NCBI GenBank assembly: GCA_039630545.1
Contig: JBCNUU010000002.1
Location: forward strand, 31,984-95,983
Direction: 5' to 3'
Length of the DNA: 64,000 bases
DNA from: Endomicrobiia bacterium
GTDB lineage: Bacteria > Elusimicrobiota > Endomicrobiia > DTEH01
Shown here: in pieces, positions 42,001-51,000 of the stretch
Layout of the letters: every line of letters starts with the position of its first letter
Position numbering within the stretch: the first letter of the stretch is position 1
Position numbers: made by a program

Positions 42001-45000
42001 GAGTTGTTAAATTCTTCAATAAGTTCTTTGTTATTCATTTCTCTAAAAGTTTTATTATATGGAACAAATTTATTAAATTCTGATTTATAAACAGGAAATT
42101 TATAATGTTTAAAGGATAAAGTTAAAATTTCATTATGTAATTGAAAATTCAAAATATTCATTTTACCTTCCAATAAATAAAGAATAACATTTCCTTGAGG
42201 GTCTGTGCGAATATTAGCTTCTTTTGCATAAATAGTTTGCAATATATTCCCGTCTATTAAATTGTGAATATAAATACCATAAGCGTTGTTTTTGTAAACT
42301 TTTTTTGTAAAAATTTTTTTATTTTCTAAATTTACAACCCCATTGTCCTGGAAATTAATAAATGGTTTAGAAATTATTTGTTTGAAATATATAAATTTGA
42401 AATTTTTATAACTTTCAGGGACTATATATGCATTGAAATACATAAGAATCACTGCAATGATTATAGAGATCAAAAATAAATTTTTGGTGTAATAGGTTTT
42501 ATCTAACCCCATAGTATGTAAGGTTAAAAGTTCTCTGTGTTCATTCAATAAAGATAAACACATGATTGTGGATAATAAAAAAGTTATAGGAACAGTCAAA
42601 GATACTACTGATGGCATAAGGTGGAAAAATAGATTTAAAATTATAGACAAATCAGGGCGATGTAAAAATAAAGTATTAAGTATCTGGTAAAGATAATTTA
42701 AAAAAATCAAAAAAGCAATAATAAACAAATAAGTTAAAAAAGTAGAAAAGAAACTTAAAGTTATATATTTATTTATTGTCTTCATTGTTGGTTATTTTTG
42801 AAAAATATACAAAAATTACATAAAAAATTGTATAAATATTTAAATTTTTAATTTTAAAATCTATGATCTATAGAAAAATTTTATTTACTCTGGGATTGCT
42901 ATTAATCTGCAACACTACTTATTTAATCTTTGCACAACTAAATATAGAAATAAGCAGTGAAACTGAACCAGGCAATAATATTTTTAAATTTGACCAGAAA
43001 AGATGGAATATTGTAAGGGACGCCATAGAAAAAGGAATAAATCTTTATGAAGAAACAAAATCAACTGTTTCTGCCACAAGACCTCCAGTTGTAACACCTA
43101 CTACTATAGAATTTATGGAAGGAACTCAACTTTCTATTGCAGGAAGGAAACTTATAGGAATGGAAATAAAAAATATAAATTATCCTTACAGACCAGAATA
43201 CAGCAGAACAGATGTAAATATGAAACAAGAACTTCAGGTAAGTGTAAAAGGAAAAGTTGGTAAAAATGTAGATGTCAACATAGATATTGATGACACCCAA
43301 CCGGATAAAAGAGACATTTCTATTATATACAGAGGTGAAGGCGTAGATGTCACTCCCGGAACTGTAGGATATAAAGCAAAACCAGGAGCATTTATTCAAG
43401 AAATAGCTTTTGGAGATATTCAGTTAAGCATCCCTAATACTGAATTTGTTGGTTATTCCAGACAGGTATTTGGAATTAAAGCTACCGGTCAATATAAAAA
43501 TGCTAAATTATATTTGATTGCATCACAATCGAAAGGTAATTTTGAAACTAAAAGATTTACAGGAAAATTAGAATTTGAAAGAAAAATTTTATTTGATACT
43601 TCATATATCCGCAGAAAATACTATAAAGTTGCTTTCAGTAACCATAAAATAAAAAAAGATTCTTTAAAAATATTTATAGACACACTGGATCCACAAAGAG
43701 ATCCTGCCACTTTAGTTACTCTTACTGCAGAAGCTTTTGGTATATCTACTTTTACTTATACAGGTAAGTTTGAACAATTGGCACCTGGGAGAGATTTTAT
43801 TGTGGATTACGCTAAAGGAATTGTGACTTTTACACTTCCTTTTAGAAACATACAACCAAACTGGATTATTGCTGTAGATTATATAGATGAAAATACAAAC
43901 CTAACTTTAAGAGAACTTGCTGGTACAACAAATTACATTTTGATTAAGGACAAAGAAGAAATAATTACTACAGAATTATTAAACAGATATTCAATAGGAA
44001 AAACCAACATAGTAAGAGATGATGGTACAGGAAATTTTTTGTTGAAAATAACTGATAAAAGTCAACGCATTTTAGATCCTCTTTTAGACAAAATTCAACC
44101 TGGAGAAAAACCAGTTCCTGTTTACAAAATTGGAAACACAGGAGATATAATAGTAGATTTTGAAAATGGTGAGTTTTATTTCATATCAGAAAAACCTTTT
44201 GCTGATGATTGTTATGATAAAAACCCTATAAGCAGATATGACATTTTGTTAGAGTATAGATACAGAATAAAAACTTATTTTTTGAAACCTTTTATGGTTC
44301 CATATTCAGAGAAAATAACAATAGATGGTCGTCTTCTACAACGAAATATTGACTACTGGATAGATTATGATTCTGGATTTATCACATTTTTAAAAGAGGA
44401 AATAATTACAGAAACCAGTATAATAGAAGCAAGCTATGAATATAGTATGTTAGGTCTTCAGGGTGGAGAAACTCTTGCAGGTGGAAGAATAGAACTTCCT
44501 CTACATAGTAAATTTTTTATAGGAGGCAGCTGGATAGGTAATTTACCATCTAAAGGCACAAATGTTCCTGATACTAGAAATACTCCAAGTTCTTTACAAT
44601 TATGGGAAACAGATGCAAGATTAGTTAATATAAAATTACCATTTGTGCCATTTACTGTTAATACTATTTCTGGAGAATATGCAGAAAATGAAAAAAATCC
44701 TAACATATGGGATAAAGCAGTGGTTGAAAATATGGAAGGTATTACTTTAGAAGATAGCGTTTCTCTATATAGACATATGTGGTATTATGCAGGCTGTAGT
44801 GATATTTATATTCCAGGAAAATATGACGAAAAATTAGACAAATTAGTAGGAGGAGAACTTTCCTGGGAAAATGAAGAACTACCAACCAGAGAAATAAATC
44901 CTAATAGAGAAACTACACTGGAAAAACAACAAGTTTTAAAAATAAATTATAATCTATATGCTTCTTCAGAAGTTGCTTTAGGTTATACATTTTCAAAAAC

Positions 45001-48000: not shown

Positions 48001-51000
48001 TGTAGTAAAGACAGAAACAAATTATAGTTTAAGCATCCACGGTCAGGTAATCATAAGATTTTAATAGTTAATAGAAGGAGGTTATACTATGAAATTATTT
48101 ATTGATTCTGCTGATATAGAAGAAATAAAAAGAATAAATCAACTGGGAATTTTAAGTGGAATAACTACTAACCCGACACTTTTAGCTAAAACATTAGGTA
48201 ATAAAAAACCAGAAAATGTTTTTGAAGAGACAAAAAAAATTCTAAAAGAAATATGTGAGATAACAAATGTTCCGGTGTTAGCAGAACCAGTTAGTACTGA
48301 ATGTGAAAAAATAGTCAAAGAAAGTTTAGAACTCGCAGAGATTTCTCCTCAAATTGTTGCGAAAATACCAATAACTGAAGAGGGATTGAAAGCAGCAAAA
48401 ATTTTAAAACAAAAAGATATTAAAATAGCTTTTACATTGATATTTTCTTTAAAACAGGCAATAATTGCAGCTATGGCTAAAGCCGACTATATATGTCCTT
48501 TTGTGGGAAGATTAGATGATATAGGGGAAAAAGGAATTGAACTAGTTGAGCAAATTGTAAAAGTATACAAAAATTATAATTGGAATACTGAAATAATAGT
48601 TGCTTCTGTAAGAAATGTAGAACACATAACATATTCAGCTTTATACGGAGCTGACGCTGTAACAGTTCCCTATAGAATTATAACCGAACTTATTCATCAT
48701 ATGCTTACTCAAAAAGGAATTGAAAAGTTTTTAGAAGATTGGAAAAAAATTTCCTAGAAATTCTATAAGAAACGGAGGGAGAGGGATTCGAACCCCCGGT
48801 ACCGCAAAGCGGTACACTGGTTTTCAAGACCAGCCCCATAAACCACTCGGGCATCCCTCCTTTTTTATAAAAATTTTTTATTAAAATTTAGTTTCAAATT
48901 CAACATTTAAATAACTGCTTTGAAAAATTAAATTTTAGTTGAAAAAATAAAATAATTTTTATATAAAATTCTAAATTATAAAATTTACATAGTTTTTCTA
49001 AAAATTTTTAAAATGTTTTCTAAAAAAGTTCGTGGTGTAAGAGATATATTACCAGACGAAGCAAAAAAAATAGACTACATAGAAGAAATTTGTCAAACTT
49101 CAGCAAAGAAGTTTGGATTTAAAAAAGTAATTCTTCCTATAATTGAAAACTTACAACTATTCTATCATACTTTAGGACAAACCTCAGATATTGTAGAAAA
49201 ACAAATGTTTATAATACAAAGTAGATCTTCCAAAGAAACAGATACTTTGACCTTAAGACCGGAAGGAACCGCTGGTATGGTTCGTTTTTTTGTAGAAAAC
49301 AATATAAAAAATAAATATCCTTTAAAACGCTTTTTTTATTCAGGTCCTATGTTTAGATATGAAAGACCACAAAAAGGCAGATATAGAGAATTTTATCAAT
49401 TTGGATTTGAAATTTTTGATGAAGCTCCTGTTAGTAGTGATGTAATTCTAATAAGTTTAATAAATGAAATTTTAAAAAAATTATCTATAGAATATGTACT
49501 TGAAATAAACAGCATAGGATGTATAAATTGTAGGCCGAAGCTTTTAGAAAATATAAAAAAAGAACTAAAAAAAATAGAAAATATTCTGTGTGATGTTTGT
49601 AAAATAAAATTAGAAAAAAATCCCTTAAGAATTCTTGATTGTAAAATGGATATTTCAAAAATAGAGGAGACAGATGTTTTAAAAAATATAAACTTTATAG
49701 AAAATATATGTAATGAGTGTAAGGAAAATTTTGAAGATACAATTAAATTATTTGATTATTTATCAATCAACTATAAAATAAACACTTTTATAGTTCGTGG
49801 TTTAGACTATTATAATGGCTTAGTATTTGAATACAAATCTTTTAATTTAAATGCAGCTCAAAACACAATATGTGCTGGAGGAAGATACGATTTTTTGGTA
49901 AAACAATTTGATACACAAATAAACTATGCATGTGGAGCAGCTTTGGGGATAGATAGAGTTGCAGAGCTTTTATCAGAAAATTTCAAAGATTTCGAATCTA
50001 AAACAAAAATAGGCATTGCCATAGTTGACGACAAATACATTCCAAAAAGTTTTGAGATATTAAATATGATTTCAAAAAACTTAAAAGATTTCAGCATCTT
50101 GGGACCTTTTATAAAAAGGAGTTTAAAGTCACAGCTTAGATTATTTAATAGCGAAGGCTGCAGATATGTAATAATTATAGGTGATGAAATAAAAGAAAAC
50201 AAAGTAATAATTAAAGATTTTACAAAAAATTTTCAAAAAATTTTAAAACTTGAAGAGTTACCAAATAGCATTTATGAAATCTAATTTTAAAATCTTTTGG
50301 TTTTTGATAGTATTTGTCATAGGAATTAATTTAACATATTCTGACATAGAAATTGGTATTTCTTATTTTTTAAACGGTAATTATGAACTATCAGAATTGA
50401 TGTTTAAAAGAAACAATTTTTATGAAAAGGGCATTAATTTGTATTCTGATTTCTATTTAGGGTATCTATTATATTTAAACGACAAAATTAACTTATCAAA
50501 AGAAATTTTCAAAAGATATATTGATAATACTTCAATAGATAACAACTTAAGACTTTATTCGAATCTAATATACGCTGAATGTTGTGTATTATTAAATGAA
50601 TATGAGGAAGCATTAACTGTTTATGATAAGATTTTAGAAAAATCTTCCATTTCGAATCTAGAAAGTGATCTATTAATGTATAGTTTATATGGTAAGATTT
50701 ATTCTTTATACAAACTAAAAAAATATAACAATACTTTGATCACAATTTCTTTGTTTAAATCTTACGTAAGTAAGAAAAAAATTATAAAAATTGACCCTCA
50801 GATAGAACAGCAAATAGAATATATTTTGGCTGATTGTTGGTATCAAAAAGGAAATTATAATAAAGCAAAAGATATTTTTCAAAATTTTGTCACAAAATAC
50901 AAAAATTCACCATTAGCGGCATATAGTAATTTTAAATTGTTTTTAATATATGATAACCAACAAAATTATAAAGAAGCAGAAAATATTCTTAAATCGTTAG

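What a model noticed while it worked through the whole genome (the two positions that open the first line are those of the whole stretch)
42863..48064. T9SS-like sorting system outside the FCB group: short SprA-like translocon, 20 PorV/PorQ-like barrels, 12 cargo-barrel g [...]
g00468 (C12:74846-80047, 1733 aa, no Pfam or NCBIfam row in the tables) is a remote, about 25% shorter homolog of the type IX secretion translocon SprA/Sov. The genome also encodes 35 proteins with a T9SS-type C-terminal sorting domain and 20 PorV/PorQ/PorP-like outer-membrane barrels. Twelve of the barrels lie directly downstream, on the same strand, of a gene for a protein with the sorting domain (for example g00437-g00438, g00571-g00572, g01310-g01311, g01417-g01418, g00456-g00457), so many cargoes appear to have a private barrel. 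No GldK/L/M/N, PorU or PorZ family reaches its cut-off; an ExbB-ExbD-ExbD set (g00376-g00374) sits inside the C6 cluster of barrels and cargoes. The SprA-like p [...]
Evidence so far: NCBIfam TIGR04189 (SprA) vs g00468: E 1.3e-22, 79 bits (cut 200), three collinear stretches of the model 114-234, 606-686, 1394-1488. 193 homologous clusters at E<=1e-8 with residues 60-760, 120 listed, named Elusimicrobia/Endomicrobium where named, 11 of the 120 with Pfam SprA_N PF14349; the Endomicrobium proavitum one is named 'SprA N-terminal domain-containing' by UniRef. Sorting-domain HMM: 35 proteins. Barrel HMM seeded from NF033709 hits: 20 proteins, neighbours listed in call 108; NCBIfam PorV_fam/PorQ/PorP sub-threshold hits for g00364, g00369, g00373, g00438, g00572, g01418. 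GldL TIGR03513 and GldM TIGR03517: no match in six frames; no Gld*/PorU/PorZ row in pfam.tsv or ncbifam.tsv. [...]
(Added by a program. Inside this text positions count along the whole contig: contig position 31,984 is position 1 of the stretch shown here. "Call 12" and the like, gene names such as g00115 and contig names such as C1 are that model's own, and its searches are not shown. The text may have been shortened before it was handed on; [...] marks where a part breaks off. The agent that wrote the report below was given it as the finding of a first reader that could run no searches.)

Follow-up and report, generated by a model that had tools for sequence, protein, structure and literature searches.

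The report
Short SprA translocon system in Elusimicrobiota
This gene encodes a shortened relative of the outer-membrane channel of the type IX protein secretion system, found here with carrier barrels and tagged cargo enzymes in a bacterial phylum where the system is said not to exist, and without its known motor.

Summary
Window 42863-48064 (+) is one 1733-aa ORF with a signal peptide and a terminal Phe. It is a true SprA/Sov homologue. A profile of 39 homologues hits only F. johnsoniae SprA in the PDB (E 5.5e-28, collinear). AlphaFold models of both halves (pLDDT 85 and 79) have SprA as their top four Foldseek hits (E 1e-22 to 1e-33, next 1e-6). Firestonebacteria homologues pass the curated SprA cut-off.

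My own counts are 19 PorV/PorQ-type barrels (3 over the NCBIfam cut-off), 32 cargoes with a sorting domain and 12 adjacent cargo-barrel pairs. With Bacteroidota positive controls, GldK, GldL, GldM, GldN and the catalytic part of PorU are not found here. GldM and PorU are missing in 101 phylum genomes.

The SprA-like gene is in 216 of 251 Elusimicrobiota genomes. It forms its own clan apart from the FCB sequences. Sorting domains were missing where it is lost.

Most likely this is a reduced type IX-like export and surface-anchoring system. Its energy source is unknown, and the ExbBD idea is not supported. It is a new variant of a known kind. The scan had already noted two cargo-barrel modules elsewhere in this genome.

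The parts
42863..48064 (+). SprA/Sov-family outer-membrane translocon, short form (1733 aa). It has an N-terminal signal peptide (MIYRKILFTLGLLLICNTTYLIFA/Q) and a C-terminal Phe.
   Evidence: ORF and translation. TIGR04189 79 bits. Profile against PDB SprA, E 5.5e-28. Models and Foldseek. Present in 216 of 251 phylum genomes.
41679..42785 (-). LptF/LptG-family LPS export permease, transcribed divergently from the SprA-like gene; a conserved neighbour.
   Evidence: PF03739 146.6 bits. An LptF/G family gene lies next to the SprA-like gene in 18 of 21 loci.
40603..41682 (-). Second LptF/LptG-family permease.
   Evidence: PF03739 181.6 bits; synteny.
37885..39708 (+). Cargo: M6-type metallopeptidase with a C-terminal sorting domain (about 39421-39705).
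   Evidence: PF05547 48.6 bits and PF18962 26.7 bits against a cut-off of 27. PF18962 scores 31.6 bits in the six-frame search. My own CTD HMM gives 63.6 bits at residues 519-607.
39705..40598 (+). Carrier barrel (297 aa) overlapping the cargo's stop codon by 4 bases; the most divergent barrel of the set.
   Evidence: My own barrel HMM 184.1 bits. NF033709 only 19.5 bits. Pair listed.
22313..22825 (+). Small protein (170 aa) made up mostly of a sorting domain.
   Evidence: PF18962 24.4 bits and PF13585 21.1 bits. My own CTD HMM 68.3 bits.
22822..24396 (+). PorV/PorQ-family barrel fused to C-terminal TPR repeats (524 aa), overlapping the upstream gene by 4 bases.
   Evidence: NF033709 95.7 bits against a cut-off of 90. 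Six-frame score 96 bits. TPR repeats at residues 459-520.
50250..53078 (+). 942-aa TPR protein; only a candidate PorW/SprE-like partner, membership not shown.
   Evidence: NF052312 PorW/SprE 65.3 bits against a cut-off of 250, alongside stronger matches to other TPR families. PDB hits are generic TPR proteins only.
54561..55166 (+). TolQ/ExbB-family proton channel subunit (201 aa); listed as a possible energy source only, with no evidence linking it to the system.
   Evidence: PF01618 110 bits. TIGR02796 tolQ 104 bits against a cut-off of 221. This type is widespread in the phylum.

Best explanation
The gene encodes the Elusimicrobiota form of the type IX secretion translocon SprA/Sov. It is a giant capped outer-membrane beta-barrel, about 670 residues shorter than the Bacteroidota protein because many extra-membrane inserts are missing.

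Inferred mechanism, by analogy with Flavobacterium johnsoniae:
- The Sec system delivers proteins that end in a roughly 90-residue beta-sandwich sorting domain to the periplasm. These cargoes include GH5, GH8 and GH9 cellulases, M6 peptidases, a PLD-like enzyme and large Ig/PKD/Fn3 surface proteins.
- The sorting domain enters the SprA-like pore and is bound by loops of a small PorV/PorQ-type carrier barrel.
- The carrier-cargo complex leaves sideways into the outer membrane.

Twelve cargoes have a private carrier encoded directly downstream. The remaining cargoes presumably share carriers.

No PorU sortase is present, so the sorting domain is probably not cut off. Cargo would then stay on its carrier at the cell surface. 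Several carriers carry periplasmic wall-binding or TPR extensions (OmpA-like, LysM, ComEA-HhH, TPR) that would pin the complex in place.

The GldKLMN/PorKLMN motor and track of Bacteroidota is missing from the whole phylum sample. Release from the translocon must therefore be unpowered or driven by an unidentified source.

What is shown: homology, fold, gene content, gene order and phyletic pattern. What is inferred: transport, carrier function, anchoring and retention of the sorting domain.
For: Homology and fold:
- A profile of 39 homologues matches only SprA among 177,635 PDB sequences (E 5.5e-28). The three collinear stretches cover profile positions 129-1284 and SprA residues 151-1754.
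- The models of residues 641-1733 (pLDDT 85.2) and 1-1000 (pLDDT 79.2) each have the four SprA entries as their top Foldseek hits. The E-values are 3.9e-30 to 1.6e-25 and 1.8e-33 to 1.5e-22; the next hits are at 8.9e-7 and 1.5e-6.
- VIA-align lays 896 residues of the model (1-1034) on SprA residues 877-2382.
- Homologues linked to the query at E 2.9e-68 or better reach the curated TIGR04189 cut-off of 200 bits: Firestonebacteria P0087 scores 219.8, P0091 202 and P0092 224.6.

Partners:
- I found 19 barrels. Of these, 17 hit a T9SS barrel family at E<=0.01, and 3 pass the PorV/PorQ cut-off with 119.3, 110.2 and 95.7 bits against 90.
- I found 32 proteins with the sorting domain. It sits within 16 residues of the C-terminus in 31 of them, and 8 six-frame matches are over the PF18962 cut-off.
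- There are 12 adjacent pairs on the same strand, with gaps of -68 to +79 bases.
- The cargo domains are those expected of secreted enzymes and adhesins.
- A complex prediction of barrel L011 with the sorting domain of its upstream cargo scored 0.80, with a best control of 0.01. That mark was reached by 116 of 157 solved complexes and 2 of 215 mismatched pairs. The runs agree in at least 95% of contacts and the partner's pLDDT is at least 84. A PorV-CTD complex has been solved (8gl6), so this pass may only reflect likeness.

Phyletic pattern:
- The SprA-like gene is in 216 of 251 phylum genomes, 187 of 196 high-quality genomes and 79 of 85 genera.
- In one family, 5 of 5 genomes with the gene have 2-5 barrels and 1-5 sorting domains. 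Of 5 genomes without it, none has an intact sorting domain and only one has strong barrels.

Missing parts:
- The GldL, GldM, GldK and GldN searches score 130-627 bits in two Bacteroidota controls and nothing here.
- PorU scores 394-1414 bits in four FCB controls. Here only its sorting-domain end matches, at 61.8 bits or less.
- GldM is found in 0 of 101 phylum genomes, and PorU at E<=1e-25 in 0 of 101.

Mechanistic frame: passages of PMC10994853.
Against: - The protein itself scores 79 bits, far below the curated SprA cut-off of 200. It has no Pfam hit and no single-sequence PDB hit.
- The barrel could not be modelled in one piece. The strand number, the cap and the lateral opening are therefore not verified, and the TM-scores to SprA are low (0.32-0.37).
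- By VIA-align Z-score, ordinary 22-strand barrels rank as high as SprA (16.6 against 14.6), although over only about 300 residues.
- In Flavobacterium johnsoniae, energy from the motor is needed to extract substrates. A motor-less system therefore contradicts the only studied mechanism, unless another source exists.
- Divergent motor proteins could escape HMMs built on Bacteroidota. SprA itself lost 60% of its score, and GldL is short.
- The conserved position beside lptF/lptG (18 of 21 loci) could point to a different or additional envelope role.
- One genome without the SprA-like gene keeps two strong barrels (G018).
- The genomes compared are relatives and are not independent.
- The genome is 95.5% complete in 82 contigs.
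- No expression or localisation data were examined.
Confidence: 0.7

Rival explanations
1. It is a complete type IX system whose motor, hub and sortase are present but too divergent for the Bacteroidota-trained models to recognise. In that case it works exactly as in Bacteroidota.
For: - SprA itself reaches only 79 of the 200 bits required, so its partners may be equally eroded.
- GldL is a short membrane protein that is hard to detect.
- Two TPR proteins of about 940 aa give weak PorW/SprE matches (65.3 and 91.9 bits against a cut-off of 250).
- MotA/ExbB/TolQ-type channels are present.
- In F. johnsoniae substrate release needs energy (passages of PMC10994853).
Against: - GldM, a 524-position model, finds nothing at E<=0.001 in 101 phylum genomes.
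- GldL's best E-value is 0.005 in 21 genomes, which is noise level, since unrelated control genomes ring as well.
- GldK and GldN give zero candidates in this genome.
- The PorU model matches only over its sorting-domain end.
- A Cloacimonadota and a Fibrobacteraceae genome have much better SprA matches (up to 515 bits for the Cloacimonadota protein P0095) and an easily found PorU (596 and 394 bits). They also lack detectable GldK, GldL, GldM and GldN. This suggests that the motor is a Bacteroidota feature rather than merely diverged.
Confidence: 0.15
2. The SprA-like barrel has a different or broader primary role in outer-membrane biogenesis, for example lipopolysaccharide or lipoprotein export together with LptFG. 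The sorting-domain proteins and small barrels would then be only loosely connected with it.
For: - The gene lies next to lptF/lptG, mostly divergently transcribed, in 18 of 21 loci spread over the phylum.
- It is nearly universal and usually matched at a single place per genome, like a housekeeping envelope gene.
- The Pfam LptD model finds nothing over its cut-off in 5 Elusimicrobiota genomes.
Against: - The LptD model rings only in E. coli and Caulobacter among the 14 control genomes, so it is too narrow to show absence.
- A divergent LptD-like candidate exists elsewhere in this genome (C1:69654-71624, 656 aa, OstA_2 14.7 bits). Its orthologue in another genome has weak OstA_2, LptD_N and LptD hits.
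- Sequence and fold point specifically to SprA.
- Sorting domains are lacking in the genomes where the gene is lost.
- Divergent gene order is weak evidence for a shared function.
Confidence: 0.08
3. It is a relic: an SprA homologue retained after horizontal acquisition from an FCB bacterium, no longer part of a working secretion system.
For: The known motor and sortase are missing. The score against the curated SprA model is low.
Against: - The frame is intact at full length in 216 of 251 genomes.
- 73 alignment columns are invariant across 39 sequences that share only 24-70% identity with the query.
- In a tree of 34 sequences, the 13 Elusimicrobiota-type rows form one clan (support 100). 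Their sister is the Firestonebacteria group, and together they are separated from all 14 FCB rows (support 100). They are not nested inside any FCB phylum.
- Cargo and carrier genes are numerous and intact.
Confidence: 0.02

Closest known systems
SprA (Flavobacterium johnsoniae; PDB 6H3I, 6H3J, 8GL6, 8GL8) / Sov (Porphyromonas gingivalis), NCBIfam TIGR04189
   Same: It is homologous along the whole length. SprA is the top structural match for both halves. It is encoded in a genome that also has PorV-type barrels and substrates with C-terminal sorting domains.
   Different: - It has 1733 residues against about 2300-2400. In a fast alignment, 672 columns are filled only in the Bacteroidota rows, spread over many small inserts.
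- It scores 79 bits against a cut-off of 200.
- It lies in a phylum outside the FCB group.
- GldKLMN and PorU are absent.
- It has a conserved position beside lptF/lptG.
PorV / PorQ carrier ('shuttle') barrels of the type IX system (NCBIfam NF033709, NF033710, NF033711)
   Same: Seventeen of the 19 barrels hit these families, and 3 pass the subfamily cut-off. The predicted binding of a sorting domain involves barrel loops (score 0.80, best control 0.01; that mark was reached by 116 of 157 solved complexes and 2 of 215 mismatched pairs; runs agree in at least 95% of contacts, partner pLDDT at least 84). The pass may be memory of the solved complex.
   Different: There are 19 paralogues rather than one or a few. 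Twelve are encoded directly after a cargo gene. Several are fused to OmpA-like, LysM, ComEA-HhH or TPR domains. None reaches the equivalog cut-offs for PorV (250) or PorQ (220).
Type B sorting-domain cargo with cognate PorP/SprF-like carriers in Bacteroidota (SprB-SprF; abstract of PMC9143113 seen in the listing; passage of PMC10994853; that those genes lie side by side is recalled)
   Same: Each cargo has its own carrier encoded next to it, and the carrier keeps the cargo on the cell surface. This is the logic proposed here and in the earlier scan notes e1-363641 and e1-363642.
   Different: - The barrels here match PorV/PorQ far better than PorP/SprF. The best PorP score is 27.4 bits against a cut-off of 90.55.
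- Of the five cargoes that hit the type B-like CHU_C model at E<=1e-4, four lack an adjacent barrel and one lies on a 1.5-kb contig that cannot be judged.
- There is no GldK to which carriers could be disulfide-linked, as described in Bacteroidota (passages of PMC12635249; GldK search).
SprA-PorU systems of non-Bacteroidota FCB phyla (one Cloacimonadota and one Fibrobacteraceae MAG searched here)
   Same: They have SprA but no GldK, GldL, GldM or GldN detectable with the NCBIfam models.
   Different: Those genomes keep a full-length PorU (596 and 394 bits) and a long SprA of 2040-2220 aa. The Cloacimonadota proteins P0094 and P0095 pass the SprA cut-off. The Elusimicrobiota form lacks PorU and is shorter.

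Membership tests
SprA/Sov translocon (NCBIfam TIGR04189) | Score at or above the curated cut-off of the equivalog model (200 bits) | tested here: not met
   79 bits, E 1.3e-22. Homologues P0087 (219.8), P0091 (202) and P0092 (224.6) do pass.
SprA/Sov translocon (NCBIfam TIGR04189) | Collinear sequence homology to experimentally solved SprA | tested here: met
   The profile of 39 homologues hits only 6h3i_A and 6h3j_A, E 5.5e-28, in three collinear stretches.
SprA/Sov translocon (NCBIfam TIGR04189) | SprA fold: a very large transmembrane beta-barrel with extra-membrane beta-sandwich cap domains | tested here: met
   Both half-models have the four SprA entries as top Foldseek hits, with a gap of 19 or more orders of magnitude to the next hit. 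VIA-align lays 896 residues on SprA. A CBM-like sandwich lies at model residues 223-418.
SprA/Sov translocon (NCBIfam TIGR04189) | 36-strand barrel with an extracellular cap and a lateral opening where the carrier docks (passage of PMC10994853) | tested here: inconclusive
   The protein exceeds the 1200-residue limit and was folded in two overlapping halves. The DSSP strings show about 40 long strands in all. Closure, cap and opening cannot be read from half-barrels.
Type IX secretion system (as defined in Bacteroidota) | Substrates with a C-terminal beta-sandwich sorting domain (PF18962 / PF13585) | tested here: met
   There are 17 six-frame PF18962 matches, 8 of them over the cut-off. My own HMM finds 32 proteins. 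CHU_C is over its cut-off in 3 cargoes.
Type IX secretion system (as defined in Bacteroidota) | PorV-type carrier barrel | tested here: met
   NF033709 is over its cut-off in 3 of 19 barrels, and 17 of 19 have a T9SS-barrel family hit.
Type IX secretion system (as defined in Bacteroidota) | GldL/GldM (PorL/PorM) proton-driven motor | tested here: not met
   GldL: 0 of 21 genomes over the cut-off, best E 0.005. GldM: none in this genome and 0 of 101 phylum genomes. Controls: GldL 244 and 129.5 bits, GldM 352 and 434 bits in two Bacteroidota genomes.
Type IX secretion system (as defined in Bacteroidota) | GldK/GldN (PorK/PorN) ring or track | tested here: not met
   Zero candidates in this genome. 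Controls score 598 and 627 bits (GldK) and 220 and 228 bits (GldN).
Type IX secretion system (as defined in Bacteroidota) | PorU sortase that removes the sorting domain | tested here: not met
   Only model positions about 875-1095 (the sorting-domain end) match, at 61.8 bits or less. Full-length matches of 394-1414 bits occur in four FCB controls. 0 of 101 phylum genomes match at E<=1e-25; in some genomes only 6 of up to 32 candidates were scored.
Type IX secretion system (as defined in Bacteroidota) | PorZ, PorG, PorT, Plug, SkpA and the PPI subunit | not tested
   I did not have reliable accession numbers for these models, so no search was made.
Type IX secretion system (as defined in Bacteroidota) | PorW/SprE TPR lipoprotein bound to the translocon | tested here: inconclusive
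   NF052312 scores 65.3 bits (window 50250-53078) and 91.9 bits (contig C6) against a cut-off of 250, alongside stronger matches to other TPR families.
PorP/SprF carrier family (TIGR03519) | Score at or above the cut-off of 90.55 bits | tested here: not met
   The best of the 19 barrels scores 27.4 bits.

The most novel reading that the evidence does not exclude
The trio of SprA channel, carrier barrels and C-terminal sorting domain is an ancient, self-sufficient outer-membrane export and surface-display machine. It predates the split between the FCB group and the Elusimicrobiota/Firestonebacteria lineages. In Elusimicrobiota it works with no GldKLMN motor and no PorU sortase.

On this reading, the Bacteroidota motor, track and attachment complex are later additions. 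In the ancestral mode each cargo stays bound, uncleaved, to a dedicated carrier that is itself tethered to the cell wall.
Probability: 0.35. Interest if true: 0.85.

Novelty: new variant of a known kind. Interest (0 to 1): 0.7.

Why it matters
Reviews and research papers state that type IX secretion is confined to Bacteroidota or at most the FCB superphylum. [quoted passage not shown] Abstracts of PMC7906972 and PMC10515386, seen in the listings, say much the same.

In this sample the translocon is a near-universal gene of a whole phylum outside that group (216 of 251 genomes). It comes with carriers and dozens of tagged cargoes, but without the motor, the track or the sortase.

If the system works, it is a natural minimal version. 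It makes two questions directly testable:
- What does the energy input in Bacteroidota actually do?
- Which parts are needed for passage through SprA?

It would also explain how these small-genome, partly cellulolytic Endomicrobiia place GH5, GH8 and GH9 enzymes and giant adhesins on their surface. Finally, it shows that annotation pipelines miss the key gene: all NCBI names for it are 'hypothetical protein'.

Tried and rejected
- **Single-sequence searches.** phmmer against the PDB found nothing at E<=1. Pfam gave no family. Only the profile of homologues worked.
- **Locus search for control genomes.** The search for related loci with the 9-row alignment A2 failed, because no stretch was conserved enough. 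I used the 2-row Cloacimonadota alignment A3 instead.
- **VIA-align.** By Z-score alone, generic 22-strand barrels (BtuB at 16.6) rank above SprA (14.6). I rely on aligned length (896 against about 300 residues) and on Foldseek, and I say so.
- **ExbB-ExbD-ExbD in the contig C6 cluster as the motor.** That ExbB has no orthologue above 37% identity in 60 other phylum genomes, including the same genus, and its own paralogue in the window is as close at 38%. I rejected it as a conserved component.
- **The TolQ-like gene in the window.** It is widespread, but nothing links it to the system.
- **FliG-like/TPR protein beside a cargo-barrel pair (window 24409-26304) as a motor part.** It is found in 15 of 41 genomes and in none of 26 genomes of two families that do carry the SprA-like gene. 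Rejected.
- **PorW/SprE.** Only weak TPR-level similarity. Left open.
- **LptD replacement idea.** The Pfam LptD model is too narrow to use, since its controls ring only in two proteobacteria. A divergent LptD-like candidate exists.
- **First tree attempt.** The run with 44 rows timed out in MAFFT. I repeated it with 34 rows, a fast alignment and FastTree. The rows dropped were P0020, P0026, P0031, P0040, P0068, P0070, P0082, L043, L093 and L102.
- **Complex prediction.** It passed (0.80, best control 0.01; that mark was reached by 116 of 157 solved complexes and 2 of 215 mismatched pairs; runs agree in at least 95% of contacts, partner pLDDT at least 84). It may reflect memory of the solved PorV-CTD complexes, and my paralogue alignments were not those used for calibration.
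- **Literature.** Searches for 'type IX secretion' with Elusimicrobia (4 papers) and T9SS with Elusimicrobiota (1 paper) found nothing on the subject. A six-term search across Elusimicrob/Endomicrob and SprA/PorV/T9SS showed no paper among the 25 listed that combines the two sets of terms. I opened passages in 3 of the 5 hits of the two specific searches (PMC7031533, PMC12204202, PMC8857248). PMC8542988 was opened later for its T9SS mentions only, and PMC8026616 was seen only in the listing. Supplements were not consulted.

Full report
**1. The observation**

Window 42863-48064 (+) is a single open frame of 1733 codons with an ATG start. Only two short antisense ORFs (112 and 157 aa) lie inside it. 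The window is AT-rich, with GC 0.23-0.33. The product begins MIYRKILFTLGLLLICNTTYLIFAQ, a typical Sec signal peptide, and ends in ...VIIRF. The terminal Phe is invariant in 39 aligned homologues. I recall this as the usual C-terminal signature of outer-membrane barrels.

The window is G000:C12:31984-95983. The genome has 1.60 Mb in 82 contigs and is 95.5% complete. The closest named relatives of the protein are 'Endomicrobia bacterium' MAGs at 70% identity.

TIGR04189 gives E 1.3e-22 and 79 bits against a cut-off of 200. The three collinear stretches are model positions 114-234, 606-686 and 1394-1488. Pfam gives nothing.

**2. Is it really SprA?**

The single sequence finds nothing in the PDB. 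The protein does, however, have 95 database homologues, most of them full-length at 1.6-1.8 kaa. Where named, they are Endomicrobia, Elusimicrobia or Firestonebacteria, and 7 of the 95 carry a precomputed SprA_N domain.

- A profile of 39 of them matches just two of 177,635 distinct PDB sequences. Both are F. johnsoniae SprA, at E 5.5e-28. The three collinear stretches are profile 129-264 to SprA 151-286, 328-567 to 437-780, and 727-1284 to 1025-1754.
- The family grades into recognised SprA. The Firestonebacteria homologue P0087 (E 2.9e-68 to the query) scores 219.8 bits on TIGR04189, P0091 scores 202 and P0092 scores 224.6, all over the cut-off. P0094 and P0095 score 487 and 515 bits. They belong to Cloacimonadota, going by their relatives in named MAGs.
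- The protein is too long to fold whole, so I folded two overlapping parts using the family alignment. Residues 641-1733 gave pLDDT 85.2 and residues 1-1000 gave 79.2.
- For each part, the four SprA entries (8gl8, 8gl6, 6h3i, 6h3j) are the top Foldseek hits. The E-values are 3.9e-30 to 1.6e-25 and 1.8e-33 to 1.5e-22. The next best hits are at 8.9e-7 and 1.5e-6.
- VIA-align lays 896 residues of the C-terminal model on SprA residues 877-2382 (Z 14.6, rmsd 18.9). Ordinary barrels reach similar or higher Z (up to 16.6), but over only about 300 residues. A CBM-like sandwich sits at model residues 223-418.
- TM-scores are low (0.32-0.37), as expected for half-barrels folded alone. I cannot verify the 36 strands, the cap or the lateral opening described for SprA (passage of PMC10994853).
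- The shortening looks distributed. A fast alignment has 1456 shared columns and 672 columns filled only in Bacteroidota, with few runs of 20 or more.
- The protein atlas also puts the protein next to clusters in which 20-75% of members carry SprA_N.

**3. The rest of the system in this genome**

I called 1493 ORFs with my own script and built HMMs from the six-frame hits of PF18962 and NF033709.

- **Barrels.** There are 19, plus a fragment at a contig end seen. NCBIfam places 17 of the 19 with PorV_fam, PorQ or PorP at E<=0.01. Three pass the PorV/PorQ cut-off of 90 bits, with 119.3, 110.2 and 95.7. The best PorP/SprF score is 27.4 against a cut-off of 90.55. Two barrels were recruited by my own HMM only.
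- **Fused domains.** Several barrels carry extra C-terminal domains: OmpA-like, LysM, ComEA helix-hairpin-helix and TPR.
- **Cargo.** There are 32 proteins with the sorting domain, which sits within 16 residues of the C-terminus in 31 of them. Of the 32, 29 end in Lys or Arg.
- **Sorting-domain types.** The domain alignment shows the WDG...G.Y.Y core. One subgroup has a PNPF-type start and another an LNxDxxN-type start. These recall type A and type B domains, a comparison I make from memory.
- **Cargo functions.** I scanned 20 of the 32 cargoes against Pfam. They include GH9, two GH5, two GH8, an M6 peptidase, a PLD-like enzyme and large PKD/Fn3/Ig proteins. Their sorting domains hit both PF18962 and PF13585.
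- **Pairs.** Twelve barrels lie directly downstream of a cargo gene on the same strand, with gaps of -68 to +79 bases. Two such pairs are in the window: 22313-22825 with 22822-24396, and 37885-39708 with 39705-40598.
- **Predicted binding.** A complex prediction for the best-scoring barrel with the sorting domain of its upstream cargo gave 0.80, with a best control of 0.01. That mark was reached by 116 of 157 solved complexes and 2 of 215 mismatched pairs. The runs agree in at least 95% of contacts and the partner's pLDDT is at least 84. Because PorV-CTD complexes have been solved, this pass shows likeness and may come from memory.

**4. What is missing, with controls**

They are a Flavobacteriales MAG, a Marinifilaceae MAG, a Cloacimonadota MAG, a Fibrobacteraceae MAG and a WOR-3 MAG.

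| Component | Two Bacteroidota controls (bits) | This genome |
|---|---|---|
| GldL | 244 and 129.5 | nothing over the cut-off (best E 3.75) |
| GldM | 352 and 434 | nothing |
| GldK | 598 and 627 | zero candidates |
| GldN | 220 and 228 | zero candidates |
| PorU | 1209 and 1414 | only the sorting-domain end, at most 61.8 bits |

- For GldL, none of the own genome and 20 relatives is over the cut-off. The best E-value is 0.005, at the level of unrelated control genomes.
- PorU is also found full-length in the Cloacimonadota MAG (596 bits) and the Fibrobacteraceae MAG (394 bits, cut-off 420). In this genome only the last 220 model positions, the sorting-domain end, match.
- Across the phylum, GldM is found in 0 of 101 genomes at E<=0.001. 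PorU is found in 0 of 101 at E<=1e-25, although in some genomes only 6 of up to 32 candidates were scored.
- The Cloacimonadota and Fibrobacteraceae genomes have good SprA and PorU, yet they also lack detectable GldK, GldL, GldM and GldN. WOR-3 was tested for GldL only.
- I did not test PorZ, PorG, PorT, Plug, SkpA or the PPI subunit.

**5. Distribution and history**

The family profile finds the gene in 216 of 251 Elusimicrobiota genomes. That is 187 of 196 high-quality genomes and 79 of 85 genera, usually one place per genome. Most misses are in one genus of small genomes, 0.4-1.4 Mb.

For a co-occurrence test I chose ten genomes within that family. Five carry the gene. The other five are the most complete genomes among those listed without it. 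All five carriers have 2-5 barrels and 1-5 sorting domains. The five non-carriers have no intact sorting domain, only one fragment with stop codons. Two of them have no barrel, two have only weak partial matches, and one keeps two strong barrels. These genomes are relatives and the sample is small.

I built a FastTree on 1502 columns of 34 sequences, after dropping 10 rows for speed. The 13 Elusimicrobiota-type rows form one clan (support 100). Their sister is a Firestonebacteria-plus-unnamed group of 7 rows. Together they are split from all 14 FCB rows (support 100). The tree is unrooted and the alignment is fast. Six of the 'Elusimicrobiota' rows carry no source name and were grouped by similarity. 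The result argues against a recent transfer from Bacteroidota.

**6. Surroundings**

The SprA-like gene is not in an operon with other type IX parts.

- In 21 loci (this one plus 20 that I picked to spread over families and away from contig ends), an LptF/LptG family gene lies beside it in 18. These are mostly divergently transcribed. A ComF-like phosphoribosyltransferase follows it in 17. In this genome a transaldolase follows instead.
- The link with lptFG prompted a rival reading, an envelope-biogenesis role. The Pfam LptD model is too narrow to show absence, because it rings only in E. coli and Caulobacter. A divergent LptD-like candidate also exists elsewhere in the genome.
- Contig C6 is one 26-kb single-strand cluster of cargoes and barrels, with a TPR-ExbB-ExbD-ExbD set directly upstream of one barrel. 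That ExbB has no close orthologue in 60 other phylum genomes, so it cannot be a general motor.
- Two TPR proteins of about 940 aa, one of them in the window, give weak PorW/SprE matches that I regard as inconclusive.

**7. Interpretation**

The best-supported reading is a reduced type IX-like pathway made up of the Sec system, a short SprA channel, PorV/PorQ-type carriers (many of them private to one cargo) and no sortase. Cargo would then stay on wall-tethered carriers at the cell surface.

This borrows the mechanism worked out in F. johnsoniae. There, carriers bind the sorting domain inside SprA and leave through its lateral opening, and motor energy is needed for that release (passages of PMC10994853). 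In Bacteroidota, carriers and PorG are disulfide-linked to GldK on a moving track (passages of PMC12635249). Nothing of that chain is detectable here, so the energy question is open.

The rivals are weighed in their own sections: a divergent, hidden motor (0.15), an envelope-biogenesis role (0.08) and a relic (0.02).

**8. Novelty**

[quoted passage not shown] My searches for any description in Elusimicrobiota found none.

Database hints do exist, namely SprA_N hits on some homologues and the PorV_fam model. This scan had already described two cargo-barrel modules elsewhere in this genome as type IX-like (notes e1-363641 and e1-363642). I re-detected that C56 pair.

What is added here:
- identification of the translocon itself, and its near-universality in the phylum;
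- controlled absence of the motor, the track and the sortase;
- co-loss of cargo with the translocon.

I class it as a new variant of a known kind, with interest 0.7.

Noticed in passing
window 24409-26304 (+), with 26323-31134 and 31154-33586: A 631-aa protein carries the FliG middle and C-terminal domains (PF01706 102 bits; TIGR00207 129 bits against a cut-off of 226.7) fused to TPR repeats. I recall this phylum as non-flagellated. It is followed by a 1603-aa protein and an 810-aa coiled-coil protein. Homologues occur in 15 of 41 phylum genomes but in none of 26 genomes of two families that have the SprA-like gene. A paralogue lies at C2:18836-20176.
   Followed up: partly
window 40603-42785 (-) and 20 related loci (L125-L144): The SprA-like gene keeps a fixed place beside lptF/lptG (18 of 21 loci). 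It is followed by a ComF-like double-zinc-ribbon phosphoribosyltransferase in 17 of 21 loci. In this genome the ComF-like gene has moved to C45:22481-23239.
   Followed up: partly
control genomes G023 (locus L055, Cloacimonadota) and G024 (locus L087, Fibrobacteraceae): Both have a long SprA and a full-length PorU, but no GldK, GldL, GldM or GldN detectable with the NCBIfam models that find all four in two Bacteroidota genomes. The known motor may be specific to Bacteroidota.
   Followed up: partly
G000 contig C6:226-26101 (loci L123, L124): A 26-kb single-strand cluster holds 4 cargoes, 4 barrels, GH9 and CBM proteins, and a TPR(945 aa)-ExbB(271 aa)-ExbD-ExbD set directly upstream of a 433-aa barrel. 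The long ExbB has no close orthologue in 60 other phylum genomes.
   Followed up: partly
G000 C1:34405-36435 (locus L010): A 676-aa protein combines a PorV/PorQ-type barrel, an internal copy of the sorting-domain fold (residues 318-409 by my own HMM) and a C-terminal OmpA-like wall-binding domain.
   Followed up: no
window 3092-8816 (+): A Bat-like aerotolerance gene string (DUF58, BatA/VWA, DUF4159, GATase1-like) is followed by three tandem TMEM260-like/TPR putative glycosyltransferases at 8816-15034.
   Followed up: no
signal peptides of the SprA-like protein and of several cargoes and barrels (for example window 42863-42940): About nine of roughly 50 secreted proteins listed have a signal peptide ending ..A/S/F-Q (for example IFA-QLN, LSA-QTF, VFA-QPN). 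This recalls the 'Q-rule' described for Bacteroidota, a paper I saw only as a reference title. I made no statistical test.
   Followed up: no
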